Assembly: GCA_000091205.1 (NCBI GenBank)
Contig: AP006491.2
Reading direction: 5' to 3' (one strand)
Source of the DNA: Cyanidioschyzon merolae
Lineage: Eukaryota
DNA: 64,000 bases
Position 1 is the stretch's first letter; each line of letters opens with the position of its first letter. Under the pieces are notes generated by a model, which saw only the letters and a list, made by a program, of their open reading frames with translations, was not told the DNA's origin and ran no database searches. The translations under genes were made by a program, and so were the position numbers. Below are positions 12,364-63,293 of the stretch, one piece after another.

Positions 12364-12709
12364 AATATAGTGTTGGACCGCAGGCCATACTATTACCCTC
12401 TGTGAAGACGAACATCCCACTTCTGGGTTTCACTCGAGCGGAGCGAATGCTTCCCGCTCGGGGCATGCATCGGCACGTACTCCATGCAGCGCGTTGCGCA
12501 GCCGTCGTAGCACTGGCGCGCAGCTCGTTGGATTGTGAACTGGACATCGGGGCGCTGCGCGCTGCGCGCCAGTGTCCAATCTCCGGTAGCATGATGATCG
12601 CTGGATGCGTCCAGGCCAGGCGAGCGTGCTCATCTCCGTACGTGCGCAGGCGTGTGTGTCTGGATGTGCGTACATACTTTTTGCTGGAACGCCGGTTATT
12701 AAAGGCCGC

Positions 12710-40749: not shown

Positions 40750-41958
40750 GAAGAGCTCGCTCTCTTCATGCCTCGAGATTTTCCCGACCTTATTCAGCTG
40801 ACGTCCAATTACAAGGGTTCGTAAAGTAACCGATATCATCATCCTGTTCATACGGCCAGGCCAAGCGTCCACTCGCCTCGTTTTTTTTTCTGTTTAGCAT
40901 GCTCGAATCAAGCAGACTACAAGCTTTCGCTCTTTCTTTTTCAGAGGTAACTCGTGAGCGTAGTGATCTGTGCAACGGGATTGATGAGTAAAAATACTTG
41001 ACGTCGCCCATGCGCGACCTCTTCACAAGCTCATGCCGAAACTTCACTGAATTTCTCCCGTTAAATGATAAATTACGTTCGGATTACAAATTCAGCTCTT
41101 TTTGTGGCCATTTACGAAGCGGTATTCAATTGCTGTTGGATAGCTCTCACGGGATATGCTGCCAGAGGCTCCCGTCTCGTTGGTTTGCAGGGAAAAGAGT
41201 TTCGGACTGGGACTAGAGACATCGCTGCGGTCGCTCCCAGTGTAGGGAGTGTAACGATTTTGTACGACGCGAGCGTAGAACGGATCGAAATCCATCGATT
41301 TCTTCACCACCCTGGATTTTCGTTCCGGAACTTGTTTCAGTACGCAGAAAGTAGCGTTCCACAAATCCTCTATCCAATGGAGCAGCATGCGCTTACGTGT
41401 GCTGCGGACGGAGCATTCGCAATGGGAATCGCCCAGAAGAAGCCTTTGATCATGTGATAGGGCAGCAGGCGTCGAAAACAAAGACCGCATCAGGCGGAGC
41501 CTTCTAGACCGGTAAAGGGCGTGTACCGAGCGTTGAAGGAAGCGTTCACGCTTCACAAGGCAACCATCGGAGGAGCAGTAACGGCCGACACGTGGGATCA
41601 CTTCAACTCTGTTAAATGTTACCGCTACGAGGGGCGACTTGGGGCTGCGTTCGAATGTGATGAAAATAGCAAACAGACTGTAGATCGCTTCTTCCGCCTG
41701 TGTATGAAATGCATCACCAGCAGCAGCAAGCAGCAGAGTCGGGACTTGAGTAGCGCCATCCACATCCTTCCCCTGGTGACATCGAAGCTGATGGGAACGG
41801 AGAGACCACCATAGAAATCCGCATATTACAGTGGAAAAGTAAGTAGTGGCAGAACGAGCCTACAAGACTAATGTTGATGATAGCGCGAAGAGACCCAAAC
41901 GTCTGCTCGTACGTTCCTGTTAGCTAGACGGGACTCGTTCCGTTTTAGTGTGACATGG
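40750..41958 (+). pseudogene. Y-family TnpB/Fanzor-like relic (diverged solo copy)
   Basis: The plus-strand translation reads ERIEIHRFLHHPGFSFRNL, then KKPLIM*, then TWDHFNSVKC (41593-41619), then FFRLCMKCITSSSKQQSRDLSSAIHILPLV (motif at 41737-41778, with one CxxC retained). The antisense ORF 41092..41763 shares SVHALYRSRRLR with the 229-aa antisense ORF of arms A and B. Confidence 0.5.
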
Positions 41959-48346: not shown

Positions 48347-50332
48347 TCAACAGGGAGCCCTTTTTCTCGTCAAGTCGGGGTCACTGCTATCTGCAGCATC
48401 CTGTGGAGTATATCGCCTGCGGAAAAATATCTCGAGTTCCCTTGTCGTGAGCTGGCGAAACGTTGGACGCCCATGCGGACACGTGCGAGGTGCTTTCGTT
48501 CGGAGCCATTGGTCCACCAATGACTGCATCCTCTCTCGATCCAATTGCGTTCCGTTCTTCACCGCTGCCCTGCAGGCGAGAAGCGCTAAGCGATCCTCCA
48601 GACTGGATGCAGAACCGAGTGCTTGTAGCAGGAATTGCATCTTTCGCTCAGACTGCGACCTGGGGCAATCATTCTCAGGGTCTAGGAGTCCCGCTTCGAT
48701 GAACATTTGCGGGGCGCGTTCCACTTTCCATTCCAATGGACCGATCATGGTCATGTGGATGCCCAGGGATTCTCGCAGCTCCTCGACCTGAGCTTGAGCG
48801 AACAGACCTCGCATAATAATTGGTTCGCGGAGCTCGACAATATTACGCGCCAGAGACGTATACTGGTCCCTGTACTTTTCGTAGAGCACGCGTTCGTGTG
48901 CGGTATGCTGTTCAATAATCCAAATATCACCGCTCTCCATATTGGTGGCGATGATGTAGGTCTTACCAATCTGGGTCATGGCTTCGAGTCTGAGCAGCTG
49001 GTTACTTTGGGGTTCATCAGCGGCACCGTTTAAGGCGCCTTCTTCCATATCGATAAGTTTCCGAAGATAGGTCGATGCAAATAAGTCTGCGGCGGATACC
49101 TCTGATAGCGGCATCGAGAAGCAACGATCGATGCCCTCTCGAAGTTTCTGAAACCAGTACTCGGGGTCACGTAAACGCATCATAGTTTTCATCGGGTGAA
49201 TATTCCAATCGACATCTCTTCCAGGGCATCTTATGTGAATGAAGATTATCGGGAAGCGACCGGAAGGTAACGTGTGCTGCACATGGCTCAGCGCCGCGTT
49301 CACGAGGTCCGCGTTCTGTACAGCTCTACCGTTCACAGCCACAATGACCGCATCCGCCCGTGAGCGATGGTGCCCCCGGTCCGGATACCCGAGCACACAG
49401 AGGACTTGATCGCTAGCGAAAGCACCACACTCCTCAGGCGCAATTTCCATGATCTGACTAAACATGCGGATAAGGGCGTGCTTAGCTCGCTCTGTCTCCG
49501 ATTCCTCGTCAGAGAATTCAAGTTTGCCGTATAGGGTAAGAAGATTGCGTCCGCTATCTCGAACTCTCCAAGAAACGTTCGGATGGCATAAAGCCGTTGC
49601 GCGGACGAAGGATAGGAGCTGTTGCCGCAGCTGCCTCTTGTGCGGCATGGCGGAACGCCGCGGGGCAAACTGTTCGTCGCAAAAGAGACCAGTGACCTGG
49701 ACAATGGTTCCCTGGGGAAGGCCGACAGGCTCAACCGGTTTCGTTTCAACTTGTTGTGGGCTGTATTGAATCATGTAACCACAGGGGCTGGTCTCCCCTT
49801 TCGAGCGAACCTCAATACACGCACAGAGCTGGGATATTGCCCAGAGACCCTGACCTCGAAAGCCGAGTGTGTGCACCCGTCCAGCAACGAGCTGCTCCAG
49901 TGAGGCGAGCTTACTCGTCGCGTTCTGCTGAAGACAACGTTCAAGGTCATTTGGCCTCATCCCTCGTCCATTATCTCGTACGACGATATTGCCAGCATCA
50001 AAGTCGATGTCGATCTCCACCGCGGTGGCCTCCGCGTCCAGCGCGTTCTCGACGAGCTCTCGCACAGCAGCGACGGGGCTATCAATGACTTCGCCACTCG
50101 CTATTCGCTGAATGACCTCTGTAGGCAAGACGGAGATCCGCAAGGTCAACGGTACTGACCTCCTTGGGGATGTTCGTCGATAAACGGATCTCGGACAGAG
50201 CTTCAACGGCGTTGACGACCAAGGCTGCGCTGGGCTCAGAACAACCCGTCGTGATGATGCGTCGCTTTGCTGCAGCTTGCCCACGTTGCTCGAGATATGC
50301 TTTCTTCTGATGAAACAATATGATATGAACAT
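48347..50332 (-). CDS. MUTL: DNA mismatch repair protein MutL, bacterial-size, with N-terminal extension
   Basis: The GHKL ATPase region reads IASGEVIDSPVAAVRELVENALDAEAT and VRDNGRGM. The C-terminal endonuclease-type motif is EQHTAHERVLYE, and CPHGRPT is present. The ~590-aa core sits behind a ~70-aa S/R-rich leader. Confidence 0.9.
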   Translation of the reverse strand: MFISYCFIRRKHISSNVGKLQQSDASSRRVVLSPAQPWSSTPLKLCPRSVYRRTSPRRSVPLTLRISVLPTEVIQRIASGEVIDSPVAAVRELVENALDAEATAVEIDIDFDAGNIVVRDNGRGMRPNDLERCLQQNATSKLASLEQLVAGRVHTLGFRGQGLWAISQLCACIEVRSKGETSPCGYMIQYSPQQVETKPVEPVGLPQGTIVQVTGLFCDEQFAPRRSAMPHKRQLRQQLLSFVRATALCHPNVSWRVRDSGRNLLTLYGKLEFSDEESETERAKHALIRMFSQIMEIAPEECGAFASDQVLCVLGYPDRGHHRSRADAVIVAVNGRAVQNADLVNAALSHVQHTLPSGRFPIIFIHIRCPGRDVDWNIHPMKTMMRLRDPEYWFQKLREGIDRCFSMPLSEVSAADLFASTYLRKLIDMEEGALNGAADEPQSNQLLRLEAMTQIGKTYIIATNMESGDIWIIEQHTAHERVLYEKYRDQYTSLARNIVELREPIIMRGLFAQAQVEELRESLGIHMTMIGPLEWKVERAPQMFIEAGLLDPENDCPRSQSERKMQFLLQALGSASSLEDRLALLACRAAVKNGTQLDRERMQSLVDQWLRTKAPRTCPHGRPTFRQLTTRELEIFFRRRYTPQDAADSSDPDLTRKRAPC

Positions 50333-50519: not shown

Positions 50520-51860
50520 TAAGACTGAATTTCGTTCTTTCCGAGCTTTTTGTCAGATGAGCAGCCTCGACATCCGAAGTGCATCAGTAAGGGCACTGCG
50601 GATTCATGCAAAGCTTGAGGAGTTTCGGGGGTGTTTTCGGAGTGACCCCTTCGACGCTCTGCAGCCAGAATTCGTCCGTCATCGGTACCAGGACGATTCG
50701 CGACGGCCTCGAAGAAGGACCCCTAAACTAAGCGACGGCACCATTGAATTCACATGTACGAGACTCCAGGCCGCTCGTTTCCATGCGTTCAGGGTGTCCT
50801 ACTCACGCATGCCTCGCACGCTCGACCTTTCTGTTCCAGGGCAACTCGTAGGCACAACAACTCGCGCTCCTTCGTTGACGGGTAAGTAAATCGACTTTAT
50901 GCGTTGGCGGCATGCTCACAATATCATGCGCAAACTTCACCGAAATTCTCGCTTCGAAAAAATAGACTCCGTTCAAACGACACATCCGGCTCTCTTTGGA
51001 GCCAACTAGGCATCGGCTTTGCACAGAAGCAGTTTCCCGTCGACGGGGCATGCTCCCAGAGGCTCCCGGCTCTTGTCATCGGAAACCGGACTCGGGCTCG
51101 GGCTCGGACTTTAGTCATCGCGGAGGTCGCTTCTGGTACGGTCTGCATCACTGCCTTGGACGAGCGCAGCGGACATAGATCGAATTCTCTGGGCTTGTTC
51201 ACCAACCGGGATTTCCCTTCCTGGGCTTGTTCACCATCGACATCATCGCATGGCACAAGTCCACTGTCGACTGGGACAGCGTGCGTCTGCGTGTCCAGCG
51301 CGCAGGGCACTTGCCCAGCGCATGACCCCGAAGAAGCCCGTGATCGTCGAGTGCAGCACCGGTCGCGCAAAAGCATGAGGGCATCGAGGCGAGCGTTCTG
51401 TGCACGCTCACGGCATGTATCTGGCGCAGGAACAAGTGCTCAAGCAACACAGGGCCTCTTGTCTGAAGAGACTGCGTTGTAGTCACATGGGATCACCTGA
51501 TGACGCAGACAGGTCACCGCTGCAACAAGGCGCACAGCGTCTGTATACAACGAGGATGGAAATGGCAAACGCAGCGTAGATCGCAACCTTTGCGTGTGCT
51601 CGAAAGACGTCAACAACGAGCCGGAAGCGGCGAAATCGGGACTTGAGCGCTGCTATCAACATGGTTCGTCTGTCGGCACCTGAGCTGGTGGGAAAAAGAT
51701 AGACCAGCGCGTTTGAAGCTGGATAGCAGAGTTAGGAACAGTAAACACGTGCAGAGACATCCCGTAGCGGCTTGTGTTGATGATAGCGAGAAGGGACCCA
51801 AACCTGAGCGTGTACTTCCGTGTTAGATAAGTTGGCCCGTTCCGTTCTATTCTGACATAG
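50520..51860 (+). pseudogene. Y-family TnpB/Fanzor-like relic (diverged solo copy)
   Basis: The 5' block ttccgagcttttt (~50540) is present. The translation reads KKPVIVECSTGRAKA (~51331-51375), then VVTWDHLMTQTGHRCNKAH (~51476-51535), then FACARKTSTTSRKRRNRDLSAAINMVRL (motif at 51631-51672). Frameshifts and stops are present. Confidence 0.5.
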
Positions 51861-52878
51861 TTGTAGAGGCTGCCCCTGCCATTGATGCTTTCCTTTGAAA
51901 ACTTGAAACCCCGCTGACGCGGCCCATTCCCCAAGTTGCATGCAGCGTGATCTCCGATGGCTGCGAACGCAGTAGCTTGCGAACGGTACAGGAGCGATCT
52001 CTCTAAACGCCATTTTCCGCTGAATCGTTCCATAACCGCTCGCCTTCGAGACGGACGTGCGCCCCACAGCCATGATATCCAATCTTTCGCATTCTGGAGG
52101 CGGTGGGGGCGGGAGGCGGCTATACGCATCCAGAGGCGATAGTCTCCATGATACCTAGAAAAGCAAGGGTATTCGGGATGCCCTTCCAGGCGATGTCGTG
52201 ACGTATGCTAGTTGCGCTGAAAACAAGATGGTATGTACCACAAAGCAGATACATTACAGGTGGAAACGGACAATGCAGTGAATTCTACGTGAATTGCCAA
52301 CCAAACTAGCGGGGTTTTCACTGATCCATGTAAACTCAGAGGCATGCGAGCGCGCTTGTAGGCAGCGAAACACCCCAGAGCACCCCAAATGCATAATGTA
52401 TGGCGCTGTGCAACTCAAAAGGCCGCCCACTCTACTTTGCATCGCCACTTGGCCGGATGGTAAACGGAAGCTGTCTTCTTTTGCGCTCATGGTGCAAGTC
52501 AACTGGAGAATGAGGTTCATGTGCTAACTAAGGGCACCAGTAACCTATGCAGAGTGAAAGGATGCAAATGAGACAGTACTCATATGACACGTGTTGCGCG
52601 CAAAAACCGTTTTCCATGAGTAACGCATGTGGCTGAGCATCACAATCGAGACGAGCGCGATCATCTGGGAAGATCCTGCAGCGAAATCTGGCGCATGAAA
52701 ATGAACGCGATGATCAGTCGGCGGTAGCGCAGTTCCCGGCAAGCACAGCGCCACGATGCGTAGCGATCGCGTTGCCCCACCAGGAACGGAACCCTGAGAC
52801 CTGCCAGGAGGCGCGAGGAGAACACCTTTCGTTTAGACCTAAGACTGCCTGGCGCAGCGTTCACAACCGAACGCGCTT

Positions 52879-54675
52879 CTAGATGTTGATGTTGAACGAC
52901 ACACCAAGGTTCCCGGGCCCGACTCCGCTCGTGAACCCGTTCGGGCCCAGCAGACCCGCCTGCTCATCGGGTACCATGCTCAGCTGGACCTGCGTCCGGC
53001 CCTGCTGATGCAGCAGCGACATGTTCACATTCGTATCCGGAGGCCGGTACGCCAGCCCAATGTTCCAGTTGCCGAGCGCACCACCATACTGCTGCTGCTG
53101 AACCGCCTGCAGCTGCGCCTGCTGCAGCTGCATGTACTGCATTGCCTGACGCTGCTGCTCAGCCGCCTGGATCTGCACGTGAATAAGCTGCTTCCGCCGT
53201 GCAGAGATCTCCGCCATGGTCTGCTGCAGGTCGCTACGCTCATTCGCATAGGACCAGTCGGATCCGGGCCGCACGCTCTCCTCCGCCTCGCGCTGGAAAA
53301 GCGCATCCGCTGTGTAGAACGCAAAGTCGCCAGGAATCTCCTCAGATGAAGACGCAGTCTTAAAGTGCTGCAGCGCGTTCTCCCGAATTATCTGCAGCTG
53401 CTTCAGGAACAGCGACTGCAACGACGCATCGAGCACAGTCTCGAGCTCCGCCAGTTTCCGCTCGCGCACTTCAGTTCCCGCATACGCCTCCGTAGCCGAT
53501 TCAAAGCCACTCAGGTACTTTTGCAGAAGCTCCTCCGCCCGGCGTCCAAAACCACTGATCTTCTCGCCCTCGTCCAGTTGACTCGCAAGCTCCCCGAGCT
53601 CCTCGGCGCTGTTCCGAAGCGCCTCGGAGAAAGCGGCATCGCAGTGATACGCTGCTGCCAGTGCCTCTGGCGTGAGCGCTTCCCCAGCGGCTCCTTCATC
53701 CGCCGCCGCCGCCGCCGCCGCCGCCGTAGCGACACGCATGGCCAGCGGCTTCGCAGCACGCATCGCCCCAGCGGGCTGTGCACGAATGCCCTCCCAGAGG
53801 CGTCGACTGAAGGCACCGAATCCATCCGCAGGCAGACCCTTGCTGTATTGCGAGGACAGCAGGCCGCCATCGCCACTGCCACTGCCACTGCCGTCTAGGA
53901 GGTCCCGCCGCAGACGCTGCACAGCGGCGTCGTAGGCTGAACGCGACGTGCGCGGCGACGGCAGCAGAGCTACGCGCAGCTCGAGGGCAGCGCGCAGCGC
54001 CTCCACCGAGTGACTCGCTGCTGTCGGTGCTGATGCTGCTCCGTCGCCGATTTCGCGCTGCCAGTGCTCCTCGGCGTCCAGCCAGAGAGACTCCGCGATC
54101 AACGATGCAGTGCTCTCGGTGGTATCCGCGTCCGCGCCCGTATCCGCGTCTGCGTCGCGCACCACGAACACAACGCAGGTGCGCAGGAGAGGGCCCTCCG
54201 CGTGAGCCAACTCGCGCACGATCGTGCTCAAGTACCACTGTGGGTCTGCGTCGTAGCGTCCCAGGTCGTGGTACCAGACGTTGCACAGAACAACATCGGA
54301 CACACTGGACACGTAGCGGAGGCAGCGCTCCTGCAGCTGCTGCCCCGTCGCGCCTCCGTCCCCGCCGTCGATCTCCAGCACCAGAAGCGTCTCCTGGTTT
54401 GCTGCCAGTGCTGCAGAGACGCCGCGGGTCTTCCAGCGCCGACGCTCAGTCGCCCGCGCGTGCGACACCGCGAAACGCGTCCCGAAAATGTCATTCAAGA
54501 GACTCGACTTGCCTGATAGCGGGCTCCCGATGCACCCGACGACACGATAGCATTCAGCGCCGACATCGAGCTCGCTTGGGAACCAGGGCGTGCGCTCCAG
54601 CATCACGCCATGTTCATCAATGATCTGCAGCACGCCCGCTGGCGCACTGGCAGATTGCGCTGTTCCGTTGCTCAT
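52879..54675 (-). CDS. RHD3/Sey1-type (GB1/RHD3) dynamin-like GTPase lacking the C-terminal TM hairpin
   Basis: LQIIDEHG, then GSPLSGKSSLLNDIFGTRFAV (P-loop), then LLVLEIDGGDGG, then ERCLRYVSSVSDVVLCNVWYHDLGRYDA is collinear with Sey1/RHD3. The C-terminus is Q/A-rich (QQQYGG, poly-Ala from the GCC repeat) and has no hydrophobic segment. Confidence 0.7.
   Translation of the reverse strand: MSNGTAQSASAPAGVLQIIDEHGVMLERTPWFPSELDVGAECYRVVGCIGSPLSGKSSLLNDIFGTRFAVSHARATERRRWKTRGVSAALAANQETLLVLEIDGGDGGATGQQLQERCLRYVSSVSDVVLCNVWYHDLGRYDADPQWYLSTIVRELAHAEGPLLRTCVVFVVRDADADTGADADTTESTASLIAESLWLDAEEHWQREIGDGAASAPTAASHSVEALRAALELRVALLPSPRTSRSAYDAAVQRLRRDLLDGSGSGSGDGGLLSSQYSKGLPADGFGAFSRRLWEGIRAQPAGAMRAAKPLAMRVATAAAAAAAADEGAAGEALTPEALAAAYHCDAAFSEALRNSAEELGELASQLDEGEKISGFGRRAEELLQKYLSGFESATEAYAGTEVRERKLAELETVLDASLQSLFLKQLQIIRENALQHFKTASSSEEIPGDFAFYTADALFQREAEESVRPGSDWSYANERSDLQQTMAEISARRKQLIHVQIQAAEQQRQAMQYMQLQQAQLQAVQQQQYGGALGNWNIGLAYRPPDTNVNMSLLHQQGRTQVQLSMVPDEQAGLLGPNGFTSGVGPGNLGVSFNINI
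53700..53726. repeat. (GCC)n microsatellite inside the RHD3-like CDS (encodes poly-Ala on the minus strand)
   Basis: The run cgccgccgccgccgccgccgccgccg was read directly. Confidence 0.9.
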
Positions 54676-56370
54676 GGGCAGTGTTCAATGCTTCGCTGAA
54701 GGCACCTGGTGTCCCCACAGTTCAGCTCTGTACCGTATGAGGCTTTGTAAAGACTTGACTCCGATCCACTGTGAAGTGTATTCGGTTGGGTTCCGGGCGC
54801 AGCACTGCGTGGGACGCCGTCCGCGTTTCCAGCTGTGTACGCGTTTCTAGCCACAAGAGCGCTGCTCGCCACGGTAGTGACTCCGGTTAGGCGCGAGGTG
54901 ACAGCACGTGCGCACGTTTGGTGTTATTTGGGCAGAGTTCCCGTCAGCAGGCTGCTGTGCCTTTAGGGCTGGGCCTTCTGGCTGCGCTGCAAACCCAACA
55001 GGAAGCTGAACTGCCGCAGTGCGCTCGAGTACGCCTAGGTCGTTGCGGTGCGCGCCGGCGTGTGCTGCTCGCGCTCAGGGTAGTTGCCGTAGACCGCGCT
55101 GGAAACCAACTAGGCACGCGCCTCGTCGTCCTTCTACTCGCAGGGGCCTCCTACCGCACTGCGCTTCTCGCTCGCGCTGCAGACTCGGGTAGGGTTCCGC
55201 GGCGCCGTGCTCAGAATTCGCACAGGCTATGAAACCTTGGTGCCTGAGAGCACGAACCTGTCTCCAGATGCGGTCGGGGCTCACCGGCTCAACGCGCTGG
55301 TGCTTTCCTCTCTTGTGGGTGCGCGCACGCGTAACTGGTCAATAGTGCTCGCAAGGCGTGTTGGTATGCAGCCCCTTCAAACTCCCCGTTTCACCGGGCA
55401 GAGACTCGGACTCGCTCACGCGTTTATGATCTGCGTACCACGGGCAAAGCGTCGAGTTGCACGCGCACCTAGCGCTCGAAGCTATCTATAAGAAAAGAAT
55501 GTTCACGACACAGCGCGACGCTAACGGCGACGTCCTGCAGCCTGGAGTCGTCTGCGCGCAGCCAGCGGTCATTTGGCGACGGCGGGGCGGGCGACGCGGC
55601 GGCTGCGCGCTGGTGCAGCGCCCTGCTGGTGTCCGTATTGTCGCAGAGCGCAATCGCCGCACCAGCGCAAGGCGCGCGCATCCCAGCGGCAGTGCACGCC
55701 ATCACTCAGGCAGGCAACCTGGCGCATCGTGCAGCGCACCCAGCGGCAGCGCACGTCTGTTGCCCATCCAGCTCGCTGAGCCTGTGAACGGCCAGGCCGC
55801 ATGCCGGACGCTTCGGGCGCGCGCCTCTCGCGATTCGCACGAGCGTTCCGTTTCGACGCGAGACGTCGACACTCGCGTCAGCACACGGTGAATTCCGCGT
55901 ACTGGACAGCATAAGGAGACGCTCGCTCTCGCTTGCTGGAGCCGTGTGCAGCGCACAAGTTGCGCAGCAGAAGAGCTGTCTTGTACAGACCGAGACAATA
56001 TCCGATACGTCGAGCAAGCCACAGAGCTGCCGGAAATACACAACGAGGAAGCAGTGTCGCGAGCTGTTATAGCGCTACACCTGACACGTCGAGCCTCGGG
56101 GGTGCTACGACCTGCACGAGGGCAACGACGGCGCACGGCATAACAAGCACGGGTAGACGGGTGCTGGGCACGTTCGGCTTGCTGCGACGCTGGTAGGAAC
56201 CGAACGGGGTGCTCGTACTCGCACCGCTCGCCACTCAGGGTCGCGATCGACACGAGAAGCGCCCACAGGGGAAACGATGGCACCACGAGCGCTGGACGCA
56301 TCGTCGGTGATCTCGGAACCGCTGACACTGCCGCTGACGGGCCGCGCCGCACGAGACCGGGACGCACTCT

Positions 56371-57531
56371 TTGGAGCAAGCGCGGGCACTGCGCCTAACC
56401 CTGCGCCTGTGTCGAGGCGCAAGCAGCCAGTCGCTGGTGCGGAGAAGCGCCCCGCGGCCCGGCCGACCGTTGAACGGAGCCGCTGATGCGGCCGTTCGCG
56501 GGCTGGAAGTCGCAGGGGAAGCGGCTCCACCTTCCACATTCGCAGCAAGCACCAGTGCGCCGGACGCCGAGCTGTTGCAGAGCCGCCAAACTCAGGTTGA
56601 GCAGCTGCGGCGCCAGGCTACGGACGCTGCGCTGCGGGGGCGTCAGTCATCGCGCCGGGCGCTGCAGCTTGCACGAGAGGCGCGAGCGATAGGCGTCGAC
56701 GTTACCATGAGGCTGGGCGAGCAGGACGAACAGCTGGATCGCGTGCAAAACGATCTGGACGAGATTCACGGCCACCTGACGCACAGCGACGAAATCATTC
56801 ACGACATGCAGAGTTTCTGGAAGAAGATGTGGCCTTGGGCGCGCGATCGGAATCGGCGGCACGAGCGCTACGCCCCGGTGCTGGGGGCAGACGGGCCCTC
56901 GACGTCAGCGACGCGGCACGAGATTGCATGCCTGCAGCGCCAGCGCGAGGCGGGGACACTGAACCTGCGGGAACGGCCGCCAGCTGCTTGCTCGTCTGAG
57001 CGTTCGGCGGATGAAGCGCGAGCAGCTGACGATGCGCAGGTCGGGTCATCGCCAGGGTCGGTACCGGCGCACGCGCTTCTACAGGACGCGGTGGATGGCG
57101 AGGCGGCGTCGCTCGATGGCGACAGCGAGCGTCGGCGGGGTCTGCTCTCGTCGCTGCGGCGCGTAACGCGGCGGGTACGCGGCGTCGACGAGCCCGAGGA
57201 CCGTGTGCGGCGCGAGCGGGCTGCGCTGCTCGCAGAGGGTACCGCTCCGACGGCTGCTGCTGGTGCTGCGGCAGCGTCGCCTGCGGACGCAACCGAATGC
57301 GCGGATGCGTCTGCGCAGGCCTCGGCGGCGCCGTGGGAAGAGCACGTTCAGGCACAGGATCGGGACCTCGACGAGCTGAGCGTTGTGGTGTCGGACCTGC
57401 GGACGCTTGCAGTTGGCATCGGAGAGCAGGTGCGCCACCAGAGCACCAAGATCGACGTGATTTCGAAGGACGTGGACTATGGGCGCGAGCGCATCCACGA
57501 GAATAACCGTCGCATTCGACGCATGCTCTAG
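56371..57531 (+). CDS. SNAP25/Sec9-family Qbc-SNARE-like protein (two SNARE motifs, no TM)
   Basis: The first heptad motif is LQLAREARAIGVDVTMRLGEQDEQLDRVQNDLDEIHGHLTHSDEIIHDM (Qb-like, central Q). The C-terminal motif is QDRDLDELSVVVSDLRTLAVGIGEQVRHQSTKIDVISKDVDYGRERIHENNRRIRRML (Qc-like). The start is uncertain, and in this GC-rich region all frames are open. Confidence 0.6.
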   Translation: MEQARALRLTLRLCRGASSQSLVRRSAPRPGRPLNGAADAAVRGLEVAGEAAPPSTFAASTSAPDAELLQSRQTQVEQLRRQATDAALRGRQSSRRALQLAREARAIGVDVTMRLGEQDEQLDRVQNDLDEIHGHLTHSDEIIHDMQSFWKKMWPWARDRNRRHERYAPVLGADGPSTSATRHEIACLQRQREAGTLNLRERPPAACSSERSADEARAADDAQVGSSPGSVPAHALLQDAVDGEAASLDGDSERRRGLLSSLRRVTRRVRGVDEPEDRVRRERAALLAEGTAPTAAAGAAAASPADATECADASAQASAAPWEEHVQAQDRDLDELSVVVSDLRTLAVGIGEQVRHQSTKIDVISKDVDYGRERIHENNRRIRRML

Positions 57532-60500
57532 AGCTACGGATGTGGCGGCAGCGAATGCCGCCGCCACTGCCGCCGCCGCCGCCTGGACGCACGCACGCAC
57601 GCAGGTGTCTGTTCGTGTGCGCGGTGCGTGCGATCGAGGCCTGTATGTGAGGCCGGCGAGCGCTGCTGTTGTGTTTGACGGGAAGCGCGAAGCGCTGCAT
57701 GCGCGCAGCGCCTCATCGATCTCATCGAACGATGGACAGGCGCGCTTGCGCACTGTACGCCAATGCGGGAGATGGAGGATGAGCGGTGAGGCCAGGAGCG
57801 CCTCGGTGTCTTCGGGGTGCGTCTGGGGTGCAGAGCTGCGAGGCAAGCGGCTGGCGCGTCCAACGCGAGATCGTTGTGTGTCAGTGTCGGGCGTTTCGTG
57901 GCGTGACTTGGCGGTGCTTCAGGGAGTTATCCACGTGCGAGGTATCCGTTGTCGATCGGCGGAGGACGCTGGTTCTGGTTCGCGCTTCTCTCTGTGCGTC
58001 ACTGAGACAGGGGGCGGTACTGCATGGCATCGATATTTAATACCTGGATTGGCTGAATCACTTGAAATGAACTTCTGACCTGGCATTAGTCTGTGCGCCT
58101 CCAGTCCTGTTTGATAGACCATGATTGAATTGGATCCGATGTGAATGGGCAGAAGTGACTGACTCTATGAAGTTAATGATAAGACCTCACCCGCTGATCG
58201 AAGTTTTCGGTCAGTGAACACAGTATCTGTTCTAGCGGGGGGTCTTATGGGTTGAAATATACTCTGAGGAGTGAATTCCGGACCGAATGTAGCAGCACGT
58301 CCTCTTTGATTTTTATGTGTCTCTTTCGCAGGTATCCGACATAAGGAAAGTGTCACGCGGGCTGGAGAAAGGTCGCGGGACGTTTTATGCTGTTACTGCT
58401 AGTTTGCGAGAAAACATTCTTACTTGTCTATATCAGTTATTCAACGCTGAGTAGCTGGATAATCCACTCTTCTCGTCGTCCCTGTTCCGAACGTCGTGCA
58501 CCCAAAACGGTGCTTGACAGACGCGATCTACTCGACCCTATCATCGTCGATCCATTCTACGCCGTAACTTCTCTACGAAATGCGACTAGACAAGCCACAG
58601 GATGGCACGTTGCTGTACGGTCCGTGCGAACAGTAATGAAGTGCCACGGATGGATGAAGAACGAAGCGCGACTCTAGAGGAGAACACTGCGCGTTGAACA
58701 GCACGCCAGCGATTTAGCACGGAAACGCGAACGCGTATGCCGGGATTGACCGATGTTTGTCTCGGTCACCCTCGATGGGAGATTATGATGGGGGTCTATG
58801 TGGTATTCCTCCATATGCGTAATGCAAGACAGGGGCTAACCAGTATCCGTCAAGAAGAGACAAACAGCGTGCATGACAACGACACAAGTCCTACTGGCTT
58901 TGCTATCATCGTGTGGTCACTTCCATATCGCCAAACGGACTAGTCCGTTCAACACCTCGTGCACCATCGAAACAGTGTTTGGCTTCACCGCCTCACGCAT
59001 GCTTTTGTCCTGCTCTTTGACAACGTCGGTTTTCATCGCTCATGAGCGTTCAGGGCGCACACCGCTGGGGCTGCTGTTCAGCTGCGCTTCATACCAGCAT
59101 CGATATCCGGGTTCAAGGCAGTCGAAGGCGTCATCTGTGTTGCGGAGCGTCTTTTGCGGACTGGTGGATCAATAGACGAGTCGTTCGGATCTGTGGCCCC
59201 GTTCTTCGACGAATCTTTCTGTACGAGCCTCACCAGCGCTGAACAGCTCTGCTGCTCGTATGCTGTTGCGCAGCAGGGGGCGGAAAGGCGCGCGTCGGTC
59301 CGCGAGCACACTCGCGACAACGAAGGCGACCACGAGGTGCATAAGGAGAAATAGACGCACACGTCGATAGGAAGTGTGGGCTTCAATTCCGCCGCCCACC
59401 GTGTGCGTATGGACTCTCAGGGAAAAAACGTAGACGAACTGCCGCGAACGCCTGTTTGTTGTCGCACCAAGTTTCGGCGAAGGACAGGATACCAGGGACA
59501 CGGAGGTGAACGGTCCTCCAGAAGAGACGGCGAGCAGGTACCGGAAACAGACACCTCTGGAGCGGAAAGTCGAGTCTGAGCCGAACACCACGGCCGCAGT
59601 ACCGAACACACATCGTTTGGGAGGATCTCCCAGACAGTGCGGTGCAGGGTGCCTTGGCTAGTCGCGTGGCGTCTTTCTAGGATACGGTAGGCCTAGTGTC
59701 TCTCGCTTTGACGCCCCTCGTCAAGCAGTAGTTTGTTGGAGTTCCGGATGCGAGGCTGAGCTGCCAGCGATGCACATTCTGCGGGAATACTTGAATCCAA
59801 CCTTCGTGCGACGACACAGCTGGTACTCGGGACACAAGATGCACTGGGGCCTGATCGTGGAATCCGAGGACACCACAAACGCTTCCCAGCAAATACCCTG
59901 AGGTGTCGCTGCGCCAGTTCGGCGCTCGTGATATCGTCAGCGCAGGAGCAGAAACGTATGAGAAAATTACCGTCTAACGAACCGGAATCGTATGCGAGTC
60001 CGAGTCGAGCGCTGCATGAGGCGCATACTGTGTCCGTTGGGCCCGCTGTAGCTTCGCTTTACGAGTGGCGAAAATTGGGGACGGACACGAGCGGTATTTG
60101 GAGTGCGGCTGGAGACTGCGGACGAGCTGGCGGTGGCGGAAGAAGCCGAAGCTGTAGCGAGTGCGGAAGCGATCTCGCAAGGAGCGCGAGACTCGCTTCA
60201 GAGTGTCGGAGCATATCGAGTTAGTCTTGGCCTCGAGGTTACGGAAGTCGTACCTGGGGGCTGGTTGGAACGTGATGTCTGTCTGCGTTTCATCGTGGGG
60301 TAGAAGGTTTTCCGGAACAAAGCCCTGCAGAGCAAAGCCGACTACCTCATCGAGTGCGAGCGCCCTAGCCGCCTCAAGCATCTATCTGGTGTGATCCGCG
60401 TATCTCAGATCAAGGCGCATGACCGCACCGTAGACGCCCGTAGAGTGTATGACGGCAGGGATGAGCGACCACTGGTCTCTGAAGGCTGTGACGACACATG

Positions 60501-61020
60501 GAAACAGCTTTGCGAAGAGCGTCGGCCGATGTTGTCCAAAGCTTGTGGTTTGCAGGCAGGGCACGGGAAGCAGTTTACGGGGATGATGAAGTCCGACGGA
60601 ACATCAATCTGGGTGCGCTTTGTGAAACCTATAAAACTCTTGAAATTGTTGAAACCCGCGAAACCTAGATCTGTGCCGAGCAGCGATAATAATTCCGAGC
60701 CGTTCGAGGCGGATGAAGAGGACGACTCTGTAGCGGGCTTCGATTCTAGGTCGAGGTCGCTCGTAGTCGTTGCGGTATCTCCGAAAAGGAAGCAGACAGC
60801 GCCCAGATTCTGAACGGAAAACGAGTGACGCCGCTTAGTTTTTCCAGAGCTCATAATTCACGGGAGTCAGGTTCCATGGACAAGAGGAGTCATCCCCACA
60901 AATTGAATGACGGCATCAGGACCCGTTTTTGCGTGCCGAGCACCGTGCCGTGCAGAGGCGAATGCTCCGCACGCGGTTTTCAGAGCGTCCATGTGCGTGC
61001 GGACGACACTCAGCAAGCGA

Positions 61021-61120
61021 GCATGAGCATAATCATAAATATAAATAAGCTTGAGCACGAGCACGAGCACGAGCAAAAGCATGAGCATAATCATAAATAT
61101 AAATAAGCTTGAGCACGAGC
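61021..61120. repeat. 58-bp tandem duplication (1.7 copies)
   Basis: gcatgagcataatcataaatataaataagcttgagcacgagc occurs at 61021 and again at 61079. Confidence 0.85.
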
Positions 61121-62324
61121 TTGAGCTTGCACTGAGGCCGCCAACGATTTCGGTTGAACGGAGGCAAGCAGCGTGCACTCTCCTACTCTTTCACTGACTT
61201 GGCAACGTAACTGACCGATACTTCGCGTCGCGTGGTATGGTGGAGGTCGTGTATTGCGCGGCATGTTCTGTAGCACGCAATGGTTGCCCGCCTGCTCGCT
61301 CGATGGAGGCGCGCAACAAGTGGAGGCACCGATTCTGCTCGATTCTCGTTGATGCGCTCGGGACGGCATGTGTGCACGACGAGCACGAGTACACGCTGGA
61401 AAATATAGAGAGGAAGAGTGTGGAACGTTGATGGGCGCACGAGGTCTTGTGCGGGAAGTTTATCGAACGTCAGATGCCGAGCCAATCGCAGGCGTGATGC
61501 TCGCTATGATGCATCTCCATAAGCAAGGAGGCACGCGAGCACCCTCTGCACCACCGAGACGTCAACGCCTCGAAACAAGTCTGGAAATGTCTCGCGCTTG
61601 GGGACCATCCAACGACTGTGTGCTCGATGGAGCCTCCTGAGGGAGTCACTCTGCGCGCAGTGCGAGATTTGTGGTGAAACGCTGAGGAGCTCTGATGAAC
61701 AAGTCCGTGACCTGGAGAAAGGAGTTTTTTGATTCTCGCCTGGAGCAGAGCAGTGGTATTGAACTGTGCAGGAATGCAGAGAGCTCGGTATACCGCATAT
61801 TCAAGACCGCAACGGGTCTCCTGGGCAATTGTTGAAAGATAATGGTGGTCTGTTTGTCGATATCACAGAGTGTAATGTGAAGGATTCGAGAATCATGAAG
61901 GGTTTCCAAACATTTGGTCTGCATGGTGAGGTAAATTTAGCAGTATAGCTAAAGATCCAGAGGACTCCGCCACGAAAAACCGTCAGGACAGGATAACACC
62001 CCTCGCCGCTTGGGTCGTGGTTTTCTCCACACTTGATAAAAACGTTTGACGTTCTGTATCCTACATGGATCCGACGGGGGATTTCTTCGGAGTCTGTCCA
62101 CCACGGAAGGAGAATAGAAAAATAGAGCCCTCGAACGAAGAACGCATTCGGATGATCATCTCAATCAGTGGAATCAAGTCACAGAGGCAACGGATACAGA
62201 TCGGGCTTCCTCGGCAATCATGTTGCAGTCGCTGCGTACGGAATGCAATGCGCGTTGCAGCGCAGAACTGTTGCTGACGCGCATGGCACGTAGGAAGGAC
62301 CTCTGCGAGAAGCAATGCAAGGCT

Positions 62325-63293
62325 TCATGCCAATTCTTCTTTATCGCGAATCCAGCCCAACGAAGAAAGCAAACCAACGCTCGTAAATAGTCCTTTCCTC
62401 GAAGCACGTCCTCGACGCCCAACCCGCGGCAACACTCTTGTGATCATGTACACCGTGTACCCGACGTAGACTGCTAGACCTGCATAGGCTATAGCGCCGA
62501 AAGAATCCCGCGTTAGCGCTCCTTGGAGTAGCATTCCAACATGAACATTATAAAAGTCAAAGGGTGGTTCAAGCCAGGCTGCACATTGCGGGTCGCTCAG
62601 TAGTTCATTCGGCGCGATGGTAAGGCATCGCAATGTGCTTAGTTGCGTGACAGCACCCGCGAGCGCTAAAATTGTTGCCAAGGGCCTCCATAACAAAAAG
62701 AGGCGCTCTAAAGAGCGTCCCTGGGTTGCGGAGACTCTAATTTCTTCTTCGAGATCACGCCACCAAAATAATGAGATTGGGATCATTACTTGCGCGACAA
62801 GCGCCGTCAAAAAGCCTATTGGCTGTTGCGCGATGTTAAAGAAAACAGTCAGCATGAGCATAGAGCTCGCTTGCCAGTAGCCAACCATAAGTCGACGGAG
62901 CGCTTCATGCGCGTCATCTTGCGTGAAGCTGCCGAAAAAGATCCCCAGAGGCGCCACAACGAAAAGCGGCACGGCTAGCTCGAAGTCCAGCCATACGAGA
63001 GTGCGCAACGCCGCTGGAGTGGCCTCGTTCAGCACAGTCGCAATCACAGGAGCACCTAAGAGAGTTGCTCGCAGAGCACGCCCATTACGTGGGCCTATGC
63101 GTTTCCGCCTGGAATCCGCAGGAGTGTAACGCCAAGCTACAGATCTTCTCACCGGTGACGTGCGTGAGTTACACAAGCAAAGCTTTTGCTGTTTGTGTGC
63201 GCCGTCTGCAAAGCTAAGCTCCTTTCCCTCAAAAGCTTTCTGATAAGTTGCTGCACTAACGAAGAACACTCTTTGAATGAGGCTGTTTGACAT
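62325..63293 (-). CDS. Multi-pass membrane protein with basic N-terminal extension (unknown function)
   Basis: This is a 322-aa ORF with at least 5 hydrophobic segments (LLGAPVIATVL, LAVPLFVVAPLGIFFGSF, SSMLMLTVFFNIA, IGFLTALVAQVMIPISLFWW, ATILALAGAV, AIAYAGLAVYVGYTVYMI). The R/S-rich leader suggests organelle targeting. I did not recognise the family with confidence. Confidence 0.6.
   Translation of the reverse strand: MSNSLIQRVFFVSAATYQKAFEGKELSFADGAHKQQKLCLCNSRTSPVRRSVAWRYTPADSRRKRIGPRNGRALRATLLGAPVIATVLNEATPAALRTLVWLDFELAVPLFVVAPLGIFFGSFTQDDAHEALRRLMVGYWQASSMLMLTVFFNIAQQPIGFLTALVAQVMIPISLFWWRDLEEEIRVSATQGRSLERLFLLWRPLATILALAGAVTQLSTLRCLTIAPNELLSDPQCAAWLEPPFDFYNVHVGMLLQGALTRDSFGAIAYAGLAVYVGYTVYMITRVLPRVGRRGRASRKGLFTSVGLLSSLGWIRDKEELA

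What the first reader, a model, noticed from the sequence alone, without database searches (positions are those of the whole stretch)
52879..58000. Roughly 5-kb GC-rich island covering two genes and their 1.7-kb spacer
Hand counts of single 60-nt lines give 39/60 G+C at 53641-53700 and 48/60 at 55561-55620. Elsewhere they give 27/60 at 20041-20100 and 30/60 at 29401-29460. Inside the island, long ORFs open in all six frames (for example 225, 255 and 301 aa antisense or intergenic), which is typical of stop-codon depletion. The shift begins at the 3' end of the RHD3-like gene and ends shortly after the SNARE gene. It includes non-coding DNA, so it is regional rather than codon-usage driven. Possible explanations are a recombination or gBGC hotspot, a fragment from a compositionally different genome compartment, or a boundary of an outlier low-GC region.
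Basis: seen in the sequence. Interest (0 to 1): 0.5.

Follow-up and report, generated by a model that had tools for sequence, protein, structure and literature searches.

The report
GC-rich duplicated two-gene block
The GC-rich island is real: it is one copy of an old 5.3-kb duplicated two-gene block in the red alga Cyanidioschyzon merolae, and the two copies keep overwriting each other (gene conversion), a process known elsewhere to raise G+C, so this is a clean new example of a known phenomenon.

Summary
Observation confirmed. Likelihood segmentation gives GC 0.648 at 52721-58020 and 0.529 in the rest of the window. The window is C. merolae 10D (ORF 52879-54675 = BAM80050.1; genome mean 55.0%).

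The island coincides within about 25 bp with a 5.3-kb repeat unit (52697-57997). The unit holds a Sey1/RHD3-like GTPase gene, a 1.6-kb spacer and a SNAP-25-type SNARE gene, arranged head to head. A second copy (BAM80068.1/BAM80069.1) lies 18 genes away, outside the window.

Cyanidiococcus has the same two copies, also 18 genes apart, as direct repeats 43.7 kb apart. Three of their four flanks could be matched to the C. merolae flanks, so the duplication predates the split of the genera.

Within each species the copies are 97.7-99.7% identical, including a spacer that cannot be aligned between species. The proteins are only 58-78% identical between species. This is concerted evolution by non-allelic gene conversion.

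The repeat stands 5-12 GC points above its flanks in both species. The excess appears at four-fold sites, in the spacer and in the 3' flanks, and on the Sey1 side it ends at each species' own repeat edge. GC-biased gene conversion is the best explanation, but it is inferred, not shown. Foreign origin is not supported. Novelty is modest.

The parts
52697..57997 (.). Repeat unit, copy A, of a two-copy 5.3-kb direct repeat. It is the GC-rich island (GC 0.647, against 0.529 for the rest of the window).
   Evidence: Wild contigs carrying the other flanks match the window only over this interval. L006 is a 5,293-bp contig that spans exactly 57997-52697. L005 loses homology at 52697. L003 and L004 lose homology at 57997. 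L009 and L011 end at 52697. GC segmentation gives 52721-58020. No second copy lies inside the window.
52879..54675 (-). Sey1/RHD3-like GTPase gene, copy A (598 aa, identical to BAM80050.1 of C. merolae 10D).
   Evidence: Pfam RHD3_GTPase 2e-22 and Sey1_3HB 1.6e-7. The translation equals P0017 exactly. The paralog BAM80068.1 differs at 2 positions. GC3 is 0.740 and four-fold-site GC is 0.716.
54676..56276 (.). Shared 1.6-kb upstream spacer of the head-to-head gene pair (presumed bidirectional promoter region). It is part of the repeat. GC is 0.63.
   Evidence: tblastx finds no coding conservation with Cyanidiococcus in this stretch. No credible Rfam match was found in 51000-60000. GC was measured over 54676-56300. 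Between species the spacer aligns no better than a shuffled control (42% against 44%), yet it is 98.8% identical between the two Cyanidiococcus copies.
56277..57531 (+). SNAP-25-type (Qbc) SNARE gene, copy A. In this sequence the frame is broken by one extra C.
   Evidence: The ATG is at 56277. After frame correction the protein differs from BAM80069.1 (CYME_CMI312C) only by L18P. BAM80069.1 matches SNAP-25 over both SNARE motifs (E = 1.4e-11). GC3 of ORF 56371-57531 is 0.729.
56450..56453 (+). C-run carrying the frameshift: CCCC here, CCC in all seven wild contigs.
   Evidence: With the extra C, the ORF from ATG 56277 stops after 69 aa.
52697..52878 (.). 3' flank of Sey1 that lies inside the repeat (182 bp, GC 0.604). 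The next 480 bp outside the repeat have GC 0.492.
57532..57997 (.). 3' flank of the SNARE gene that lies inside the repeat (466 bp, GC 0.657). The next 650 bp outside have GC 0.479. It contains a variable (GCC)n microsatellite at 57557-57583.
48347..50332 (-). MutL-family gene in the unique left flank (Lf1). It serves as a positional anchor shared with Cyanidiococcus copy A and with Cyanidium.
   Evidence: Pfam DNA_mis_repair, HATPase_c_3 and MutL_C. Synteny was seen. GC3 is 0.579.
62325..63293 (-). DUF3177 gene in the unique right flank (R1). It serves as a positional anchor shared with Cyanidiococcus copy A and with Cyanidium.
   Evidence: Pfam DUF3177 1.7e-43. Synteny was seen. GC3 is 0.508.

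Best explanation
**What it is.** The island is copy A of a two-copy direct repeat of about 5.3 kb on the 810-kb C. merolae chromosome that carries CMI locus tags. Each copy holds a Sey1/RHD3-like GTPase gene and a SNAP-25-type SNARE gene transcribed away from each other, their 1.6-kb shared spacer, and short 3' flanks. Copy B lies 18 genes away, outside the window.

**History.** The duplication arose after the split from Cyanidium and before the Cyanidioschyzon/Cyanidiococcus split. Since then the two copies have been kept nearly identical by repeated non-allelic gene conversion. Heteroduplex forms between the copies and is repaired without crossover. A crossover between direct repeats would delete the 17 genes in between.

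**Why the GC is high.** The proposal is that mismatch repair in those heteroduplexes favours G or C over A or T (GC-biased gene conversion). Every class of site inside the homology then drifts to a higher equilibrium GC, and the excess stops where the homology stops.

**Shown versus inferred.**
- Shown: two copies exist; the duplication is old; the copies are homogenised, non-coding DNA included; the GC excess coincides with the repeat in two species.
- Inferred: the GC bias of the conversion process itself. A weak bias would be enough. Raising odds(GC) from about 1.0-1.1 to 1.7-2.4 implies a population-scaled B of roughly 0.5-0.8 (my estimate, derived from the values).
For: **Two copies in one genome.** BAM80050.1 (identical to the window ORF) and BAM80068.1 both lie on the 810,151-bp C. 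merolae 10D record, 18 accession numbers apart. The intact SNARE BAM80069.1 sits next to BAM80068.1.

**Repeat edges match GC edges.** The repeat spans 52697-57997 and the GC segmentation gives 52721-58020.

**The duplication is old.**
- Cyanidiococcus has two copies, 18 gene numbers apart, in two independent assemblies.
- They lie on the same strand, 43.7 kb apart.
- Copy A has orthologous flanks on both sides (DUF3177 on one; MutL, DUF1499 and GT90 on the other).
- Copy B has an orthologous HECT flank.
- Cyanidium and Galdieria have a single copy at the 90% clustering level.

**Concerted evolution.**
- Sey1 paralogs differ at 2 of 598 positions in C. merolae and 4 of 592 in Cyanidiococcus, against 132-134 in all four cross-species pairs.
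- SNARE paralogs differ at 1 and 11 residues within species, against 58% identity between species.
- The Cyanidiococcus repeat is 97.7% identical over 5,552 bp. Identity then collapses to about 90 substitutions per 250 aligned columns just outside it.
- The spacer is 98.8% identical within Cyanidiococcus but cannot be aligned between species.

**The GC excess is replicated and affects all site classes.**
- Repeat against the rest of the locus: 0.647 and 0.529 (C. merolae), 0.600 and 0.504 (Cyanidiococcus copy A), 0.600 and 0.551 (copy B).
- Four-fold-site GC is 0.71-0.72 in the island genes, against 0.46-0.58 in the other ORFs. The spacer is 0.63, against 0.525.
- GC also steps at copy-B-type junctions on wild contigs (0.557 to 0.672, and 0.612 to 0.545).

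**On the Sey1 side the step follows the repeat edge, not the gene end.**
- In Cyanidiococcus the repeat runs 662 bp past the Sey1 stop. That stretch has GC 0.595, then GC falls to 0.449. Segmentation edges at 12430 and 12410 compare with repeat ends at 12441 and 12460.
- In C. merolae the repeat ends 182 bp past the stop, and the next 480 bp have GC 0.492.

**Background.**
- Elevated GC relative to flanks, at GC3 and in non-coding parts, is characteristic of regions under gene conversion (PMC2720389).
- Efficient homologous recombination, recombination between direct repeats, and meiotic recombination are all documented for 10D and its relatives (PMC13353863).
Against: - No directional test was possible. 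Differences between the Cyanidiococcus paralogs are symmetric (32 sites weak-in-A/strong-in-B, 28 the reverse) and cannot be polarised.
- Differences between strains are too few to test, and they come from metagenome assemblies that may be chimeric across the repeat.
- Part of the GC richness may belong to the genes themselves. In Cyanidium, where Sey1 is single-copy, its GC3 (0.847) is the highest of 11 neighbouring genes.
- In a third lineage (L013) the gene bodies are GC-rich (0.63-0.77) but the spacer is not (0.41-0.47).
- In Cyanidiococcus the spacer is only mildly raised (0.565), and the SNARE-side GC edge falls about 375 bp inside the repeat.
- Copy B of strain 10D itself was never seen as DNA. 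Its position and direct orientation are inferred from accession order and from Cyanidiococcus.
- The repeat unit nearly coincides with the two transcription units, so on the SNARE side 'repeat' and 'transcribed region' are hard to separate.
Confidence: 0.62

Rival explanations
1. Gene-intrinsic GC richness. The two genes were already GC-rich before the duplication, for example through codon, mRNA or expression-linked selection or transcription-associated mutation bias. The duplication simply copied a GC-rich block, and conversion keeps the copies alike without itself raising GC.
For: - Cyanidium has a single-copy Sey1 with the highest GC3 (0.847) and four-fold-site GC (0.908) among 11 neighbouring genes. 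Its SNARE is also high, with four-fold-site GC 0.832.
- In lineage L013 the gene bodies have GC 0.63-0.77 while the spacer has 0.41-0.47.
- The repeat unit is almost the same as the two transcription units.
Against: - In C. merolae the non-coding spacer (0.63) and both 3' flanks inside the repeat (0.604 and 0.657) are as GC-rich as the genes, and GC drops to 0.48-0.49 right at the repeat ends.
- In Cyanidiococcus the GC-rich stretch extends 662 bp past the Sey1 stop, exactly to the repeat end. In C. merolae it stops 182 bp past the stop, again at the repeat end.
- Overall GC of Sey1 and SNARE in Cyanidium equals that of their flanks.
Confidence: 0.17
2. An allelic (meiotic) recombination hotspot with GC-biased conversion, seated in the bidirectional promoter inside the block. 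It would act on each copy separately, and the duplication would be incidental to the GC excess.
For: [quoted passage not shown]
- Promoter-centred hotspots with gBGC are known in other eukaryotes (my own background knowledge, not checked here).
- Both copies carry the same promoter, so both would be hot.
Against: - The profile is a plateau with its maxima in the gene bodies (0.715-0.72 at 53601-53800 and 57001-57400). It is not a peak at the spacer that decays outward.
- The right edge falls from 0.61-0.67 to 0.45-0.48 within 100 bp, exactly at the end of homology. That fits heteroduplex limited by paralogous homology. Allelic conversion tracts can run into the flanks.
- The near-identity of the paralogs requires conversion between the copies in any case.
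Confidence: 0.12
3. Independent recent duplications in each lineage, with no long-term concerted evolution. GC richness would be unrelated to conversion.
For: High identity between paralogs is, taken alone, also what a young duplication would look like.
Against: The block would have to be copied independently into the same two positions in both genera: copy A between DUF3177 and MutL, copy B next to HECT, 18 genes apart, in the same relative orientation.
Confidence: 0.04
4. Foreign DNA, a fragment from a different genome compartment, or an assembly artefact.
For: The dinucleotide signature distance of the island from the rest of the window (0.111) exceeds that of all 32 other 5.3-kb segments tested (maximum 0.051). 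The island's GC (0.648) resembles the Cyanidium genome (0.657).
Against: - Protein relatives follow the species tree: 78% Cyanidiococcus, 59% Cyanidium, 44% Galdieria.
- The block lies at orthologous positions in the sister genus.
- The signature shift is shared with the Cyanidiococcus repeat (r = 0.78), and the clade's TA depletion is kept.
- Several independent metagenome contigs reproduce the sequence and its junctions.
Confidence: 0.02

Closest known systems
Long-lasting concerted evolution of two-copy gene pairs by non-allelic gene conversion, with raised GC in the converted part (e.g. mammalian DDX19A/B, TUBG1/2 and BMP8A/B; PMC2720389)
   Same: - Exactly two copies kept over a long time.
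- Paralogs more alike than orthologs, although the duplication predates speciation.
- Raised GC at third codon positions and in non-coding DNA relative to the flanks.
- Sharp contrast between converted and non-converted sequence.
   Different: - Here the homogenised unit is a whole two-gene block with its intergenic spacer, 5.3-5.5 kb long, not part of one gene.
- The copies are direct repeats about 44 kb apart with 17 genes between them.
- The organism is a compact-genome red alga in which about 80% of genes are single-copy.
- No conversion tracts were formally detected here.
GC-biased gene conversion (gBGC) model for histone, Hsp70 and rDNA families and for sex-chromosome palindrome arms (Galtier 2003 and Marais 2003 as cited in PMC2720389; palindromes from my own background knowledge)
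   Same: GC excess is confined to sequence that recombines with a paralogous partner. It affects synonymous and non-coding sites alike, and a weak bias is enough to produce it.
   Different: The bias itself has been measured or polarised in those systems and not here. The copies here are direct and not inverted, so crossovers would be deleterious deletions, not harmless inversions.
Compositional islands from horizontal gene transfer, known in Cyanidiophyceae genomes (my own background knowledge)
   Same: A sharply bounded block with atypical GC and an atypical dinucleotide signature.
   Different: The genes are ordinary eukaryotic membrane-traffic genes. Their relatives follow the species tree, and the block sits at orthologous positions in the sister genus.

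Membership tests
Concerted evolution by non-allelic gene conversion | Two or more paralogous copies in the same genome | tested here: met
   BAM80050.1 and BAM80068.1 lie on one 810,151-bp C. merolae 10D record. KAF6002209.1 and KAF6002227.1 lie on one Cyanidiococcus contig, and both were read as DNA (L012, L001). Copy B of 10D was not seen as DNA.
Concerted evolution by non-allelic gene conversion | The duplication predates the speciation (copies at orthologous positions in both species) | tested here: met
   Copy A's flanks (DUF3177 on one side; MutL, DUF1499 and GT90 on the other) are shared between the window and L012. Copy B's HECT flank is collinear between L003 and L001. The copies are 18 gene numbers apart in both genera. 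Copy B's other flank (Lf2) could not be matched between species.
Concerted evolution by non-allelic gene conversion | Paralogs within a species are more similar than orthologs between species, non-coding DNA included | tested here: met
   Sey1 shows 2 and 4 differences within species, against 132-134 between species. SNARE shows 1 and 11 differences within species, against 58% identity between species. The spacer is 98.8% identical within Cyanidiococcus but cannot be aligned between species.
Concerted evolution by non-allelic gene conversion | Stable copy number of two, which argues for conversion and against unequal crossing-over | tested here: met
   There are two Sey1 copies in C. merolae 10D and in each of two Cyanidiococcus assemblies.
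Concerted evolution by non-allelic gene conversion | Directly detected conversion tracts or mosaic exchange between the copies | tested here: inconclusive
   The same haplotypes are attached to both flank types in wild contigs, for example the 12-bp deletion at 57572-57583 with both R1 and R2. Metagenome assemblies of a near-identical 5.3-kb repeat may be chimeric, so this is not decisive.
GC-biased gene conversion (gBGC) | GC raised relative to the flanks at synonymous and non-coding sites | tested here: met
   Four-fold-site GC is 0.71-0.72 in the island genes, against 0.46-0.58 elsewhere. The spacer is 0.63, against 0.525. Repeat against the rest is 0.647 and 0.529 in C. merolae, and 0.600 against 0.504 and 0.551 in Cyanidiococcus.
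GC-biased gene conversion (gBGC) | The GC excess is bounded by the limits of the recombining homology | tested here: met
   In the window both edges agree within about 25 bp. In Cyanidiococcus the Sey1-side edges agree within 11-50 bp and lie about 650 bp past the gene end. The SNARE-side edge in Cyanidiococcus is about 375 bp inside the repeat.
GC-biased gene conversion (gBGC) | Excess of weak-to-strong (AT to GC) changes among polarised substitutions or in allele-frequency spectra | not tested
   No suitable outgroup exists: Cyanidium is itself 65.7% GC, and synonymous sites are saturated. Too few reliable polymorphisms are available. Unpolarised paralog differences are symmetric (32 against 28).
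GC-biased gene conversion (gBGC) | Biased repair of weak/strong mismatches in heteroduplex DNA | not testable with these tools
   This needs tetrad or marker-conversion experiments in C. merolae.
Horizontally acquired or foreign island | Closest relatives lie outside the host lineage, and the block is absent from sister taxa | tested here: not met
   All nine hits belong to the same protein family (same Pfam domains). Every hit that carries an organism name is from Cyanidiophyceae, and identities follow the species tree. The block is present at orthologous sites in Cyanidiococcus.
Sey1/RHD3 family of dynamin-like GTPases (gene 52879-54675) | RHD3-type GTPase domain followed by the Sey1 helical-bundle domain | tested here: met
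   Pfam RHD3_GTPase scores 80.2 bits (cut-off 42.4) and Sey1_3HB 31 bits (cut-off 24). Only positions 2-128 of 419 of the bundle profile are matched. C-terminal membrane anchors were not examined.
SNAP-25-type (Qbc) SNAREs (gene 56277-57531) | Two SNARE motifs in one chain, each homologous to the corresponding SNAP-25 motif | tested here: met
   BAM80069.1 (copy B, one residue different from the frame-corrected copy A) matches SNAP-25 at residues 104-180 and 359-417, E = 1.4e-11. The Pfam V-SNARE_C match is below its cut-off (20 bits against 27.1). In the window sequence the reading frame is broken.

The most novel reading that the evidence does not exclude
The pair of direct repeats may be more than a passively homogenised duplication. 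It may be a recombination-active module that brackets a segment of about 44-50 kb holding 17 genes.

Two wild contigs from different hot-spring samples (L003, L004) join the HECT-side flank of copy B, through the repeat, to the MutL-side flank of copy A. That is exactly the junction a crossover between the copies would produce. If those joins are real, natural populations carry excision, deletion or relocation variants of that segment.

The locus would then give a natural and genetically tractable read-out of both crossover and GC-biased non-crossover repair in a haploid-dominant extremophile alga.
Probability: 0.08. Interest if true: 0.65.

Novelty: new member of a known kind. Interest (0 to 1): 0.4.

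Why it matters
- It explains a conspicuous compositional anomaly in a model red-alga genome without invoking foreign DNA. That is useful because Cyanidiophyceae genomes are often screened for horizontal transfer by composition.
- It gives a clean natural replicate: the same repeat, in two genera, with a GC excess ending at the homology limits. This suggests that GC-biased gene conversion operates in Cyanidiophyceae. My searches found no paper describing this.
- C. merolae 10D supports precise gene targeting, and crosses are now possible (PMC13353863). The bias could therefore be measured directly at this locus.
- It flags a practical annotation issue. The reference copy A of the SNARE gene carries a one-base frameshift that is absent from seven wild contigs.

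Tried and rejected
- **Exact look-up of the window's Sey1 protein and of BAM80050.1** in the contig index: nothing found. The 10D chromosome, and hence copy B of 10D, could not be read as DNA.
- **Rfam scan of 51000-60000:** only a chance-level miRNA-family hit (27.5 bits against a gathering score of 80). There is no sign of a structured RNA explaining the spacer.
- **Hidden coding gene in the spacer:** no tblastx conservation with Cyanidiococcus and no Pfam match for the antisense or intergenic ORFs. They are by-products of stop-codon depletion.
- **Simple repeats as the cause of high GC:** tandem repeats cover under 250 bp of the island.
- **Inverted-repeat flip-flop.** I first read the L003/L004 junction as evidence for inverted copies. 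I rejected this when both Cyanidiococcus copies proved to lie on the same strand. The 10D accession order (Sey1 then SNARE for copy B) also points to direct repeats.
- **Mating-type region:** it lies at CMK076C-CMK078C, on a different chromosome.
- **Foreign origin from the dinucleotide signature:** the signature is atypical, but it shifts the same way in the sister genus's repeat.
- **Polarising substitutions to test the weak-to-strong bias:** abandoned, because the outgroup is compositionally extreme and synonymous sites are saturated.
- **Matching copy B's second flank (Lf2) to Cyanidiococcus:** no similarity found.
- **Literature searches** for this duplication or for gene conversion in C. 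merolae nuclear genes found nothing specific.

Full report

Yes. One-kb windows across 53001-58000 have GC 0.625-0.672. The other 1-kb windows range from 0.458 to 0.581. Sliding 1-kb windows outside the island average 0.530 (sd 0.027, maximum 0.598).

A two-breakpoint likelihood segmentation puts the island at 52721-58020, with GC 0.648 inside and 0.529 outside. The right edge is abrupt: 100-bp bins read 0.65, 0.63, 0.67, 0.61, then 0.48, 0.45, 0.47, 0.48.

They are what stop-codon depletion in GC-rich DNA produces.

The shift is not confined to codons. GC3 is 0.740 and 0.729 in the two island genes, against 0.48-0.58 in 13 other large ORFs (mean 0.542, sd 0.033, pooled Fisher p = 7e-29). Four-fold-site GC is 0.716 and 0.708, against 0.46-0.58. 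The spacer is 0.63, against 0.525 for other DNA outside the large ORFs.

**2. Organism and genes**

ORF 52879-54675(-) has an RHD3-type GTPase domain plus the start of the Sey1 helical bundle. It is identical to BAM80050.1 of Cyanidioschyzon merolae strain 10D.

Its relatives rank as the species tree predicts: Cyanidiococcus 78%, Cyanidium 59%, Galdieria 44%.

The plus-strand gene is a SNAP-25-type SNARE with two SNARE motifs. Its ATG is at 56277, so the shared upstream spacer is 1.6 kb.

Published genome means are 55.0% GC for 10D, 54.6% for Cyanidiococcus yangmingshanensis and 65.7% for Cyanidium caldarium (PMC13353863). The window's flanks are therefore ordinary and the island is the outlier.

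**3. The island is one copy of a repeat**

The 90%-identity cluster of the Sey1-like protein contains a second 10D protein, BAM80068.1. It lies on the same 810,151-bp record, 18 accession numbers away. The intact SNARE BAM80069.1 (CYME_CMI312C) is its neighbour.

Hot-spring metagenome contigs from wild strains differ from 10D by about 0.6-0.75%. This is in line with the published 0.71% between 10D and a Yellowstone strain. These contigs show where the shared sequence ends:
- L006 is a 5,293-bp contig that matches exactly 57997-52697.
- L005 matches down to 52697 and then continues into unrelated DNA.
- L003 and L004 match up to 57997 and then continue into a HECT-domain gene that is not in the window.
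- L009 and L011 end at 52697.
- L007, L008 and L009 carry the window's own flanks.

The repeat unit is therefore 52697-57997. That is the GC island to within about 25 bp at each end. No second copy lies within the window.

**4. The duplication is old but the copies are nearly identical**

Cyanidiococcus also has two Sey1-like genes on one contig. In two independent assemblies they are again 18 gene numbers apart. Both were read as DNA. They lie on the same strand, 43.7 kb apart, so they are direct repeats.
- One copy (L012) sits between D27/DUF3177 and MutL-DUF1499-GT90, exactly like the window's copy.
- The other (L001) sits next to a HECT gene, like the second C. merolae copy.
- Cyanidium and Galdieria have one copy at this clustering level. 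In Cyanidium the two genes are about 9 kb apart and not adjacent.

The block and its duplication therefore arose after the Cyanidium split and before the Cyanidioschyzon/Cyanidiococcus split. Despite this:
- Sey1 paralogs differ at 2 of 598 residues in C. merolae and 4 of 592 in Cyanidiococcus, against 132-134 in every cross-species pair.
- SNARE paralogs differ at 1 and 11 residues, against 58% identity between species.
- The Cyanidiococcus repeat is 97.7% identical over 5,552 bp. Identity then collapses to about 90 substitutions per 250 aligned columns just outside it.
- The spacer is 98.8% identical between the Cyanidiococcus copies. Between species it aligns no better than shuffled sequence.

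This is the standard signature of concerted evolution. With a stable copy number of two, non-allelic gene conversion is the standard cause (PMC2720389).

**5. Link to GC**

The GC excess is replicated. Repeat against the rest of the locus gives 0.647 and 0.529 in the window, 0.600 and 0.504 in L012, and 0.600 and 0.551 in L001. GC also steps at copy-B-type junctions on wild contigs (0.557 to 0.672, and 0.612 to 0.545).

The most discriminating result concerns the Sey1 side. In Cyanidiococcus the repeat runs 662 bp past the stop codon. That non-coding stretch has GC 0.595, falling to 0.449 beyond it. Independent segmentation puts the edge at 12430 (L012) and 12410 (L001), against repeat ends at 12441 and 12460. 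In C. merolae the repeat ends 182 bp past the stop, and the next 480 bp have GC 0.492.

On that side the step therefore follows each species' own limit of homology and not the gene end. Raised GC at third positions and in non-coding DNA relative to flanks is a recognised hallmark of converted regions, explained by biased heteroduplex repair (PMC2720389 citing Galtier 2003 and Marais 2003).

C. merolae 10D has efficient homologous recombination, including recombination between direct repeats. Meiotic recombination occurs in the group.

I infer that conversion between the copies is GC-biased. A weak bias would be enough (B of about 0.5-0.8, my estimate from the odds ratios of the values). The bias itself is not shown.

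**6. Caveats and rivals**

Part of the signal may be gene-intrinsic:
- Single-copy Sey1 in Cyanidium has the highest GC3 of its 11 neighbours.
- In a third lineage (L013) the gene bodies are GC-rich but the spacer is not.
- The Cyanidiococcus spacer is only mildly raised (0.565). Its SNARE-side GC edge lies about 375 bp inside the repeat.

An allelic hotspot in the shared promoter is possible. However, the profile is a plateau with sharp edges, not a peak at the spacer.

Foreign origin is contradicted by the ranking of the protein relatives, the conserved positions, and the fact that the island's atypical dinucleotide signature (distance 0.111, against a maximum of 0.051 for other segments) shifts the same way in the Cyanidiococcus repeat (r = 0.78).

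Independent recent duplications would need the same two insertion sites in two genera.

**7. Comparison with what is known, and novelty**

The finding matches the known class of two-copy genes under long-term concerted evolution with GC enrichment. It is not a new kind of system.

What is new is the instance:
- a whole head-to-head two-gene block with its spacer;
- direct repeats about 44 kb apart;
- conservation in two genera of Cyanidiophyceae, whose genomes are about 80% single-copy.

My literature searches found no description of it. It offers a tractable locus for measuring conversion bias in a red alga. I score interest at 0.4.

**8. Loose ends**
- **SNARE frameshift.** The reference copy A of the SNARE has an extra C (CCCC against CCC) at 56450-56453. 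This truncates the ORF after 69 aa. All seven wild contigs lack it, including those carrying copy A's flanks. It is either a 10D-specific frameshift or a reference error.
- **L003/L004 junction.** These contigs join the copy-B HECT flank, through the repeat, to the copy-A MutL-side flank. That is the junction a crossover between direct repeats would give. An assembler misjoin across a near-identical 5.3-kb repeat is the more likely reading, but it was not resolved.

Noticed in passing
window 56450-56453 (C-run in the SNARE gene, copy A): The window has CCCC where all seven wild contigs have CCC, including contigs with copy-A flanks. BAM80069.1 also implies CCC. With the extra C, the ORF from ATG 56277 stops after 69 aa. 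The downstream 386-codon frame stays open. Frame-corrected, copy A differs from copy B by one residue (L18P). This is either a 10D-specific frameshift or a reference sequencing error.
   Followed up: partly
L003 6692-12918 and L004 5994-11966 (JGI samples 3300005573 and 3300027863): Both contigs join the HECT-side flank of copy B, through the repeat, to the MutL-side flank of copy A. That is the junction expected from a crossover between the direct repeats, which would delete the 17 intervening genes. It could instead be an assembler misjoin across the near-identical 5.3-kb repeat.
   Followed up: partly
L013 1-6468 and L014 (third lineage, P0003): A third Cyanidioschyzonaceae-like lineage (about 80% nt identity to Cyanidiococcus, 76% to C. 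merolae) has the same head-to-head SNARE/Sey1 pair. Its gene bodies are GC-rich (0.63-0.77) but its spacer is AT-richer (0.41-0.47). Whether the block is duplicated in that lineage is unknown.
   Followed up: partly
L002 10001-11686 (Cyanidium caldarium Sey1): Sey1 is single-copy here and overall GC is flat across the locus. Even so, its GC3 (0.847) and four-fold-site GC (0.908) are the highest of 11 neighbouring genes. This hints at a gene-intrinsic component to the GC richness.
   Followed up: no
window 58000-62300: A D27-like gene lies between the SNARE and DUF3177 genes in Cyanidiococcus (L012 5472-6458) and Cyanidium (L002 1468-2508). tblastn finds no trace of it in the corresponding window interval, which contains only short ORFs.
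   Followed up: partly
window about 50917-51860 and about 41023-41956: These two stretches resemble each other at about 65% identity (a secondary hit of contig L007). They look like an old, diverged internal duplication. The stretch 51001-51400 is mildly GC-raised (0.60-0.62).
   Followed up: no
window 52879-54675 (Sey1-like protein): The protein is 598 aa. It matches only positions 2-128 of 419 of the Pfam Sey1 helical-bundle profile and ends in a glutamine-rich tail. Whether it keeps the membrane anchors of canonical Sey1/RHD3 was not checked.
   Followed up: no
window 53700-53726 and 57557-57583: (CCG)9 encodes a poly-alanine run; its one-codon length difference is one of the two differences between BAM80050.1 and BAM80068.1. 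(GCC)9, in the SNARE 3' flank, varies among strains by 12-bp and 4-bp indels.
   Followed up: partly
window 35353-63011 compared with L002 (Cyanidium): Both flanks of the window's copy keep the Cyanidium gene order: Sey1-MutL-DUF1499-GT90-CTLH on one side, and SNARE then DUF3177 on the other. The two halves are inverted relative to each other, and the HECT gene that lies between them in Cyanidium has moved next to copy B. The rearrangement that created the head-to-head pair was not reconstructed.
   Followed up: partly
window 57672-57764 (-): Weak Rfam match to the mir-BHRF1-3 family (27.5 bits, against a gathering score of 80). I judge it a chance match in GC-rich DNA.
   Followed up: no
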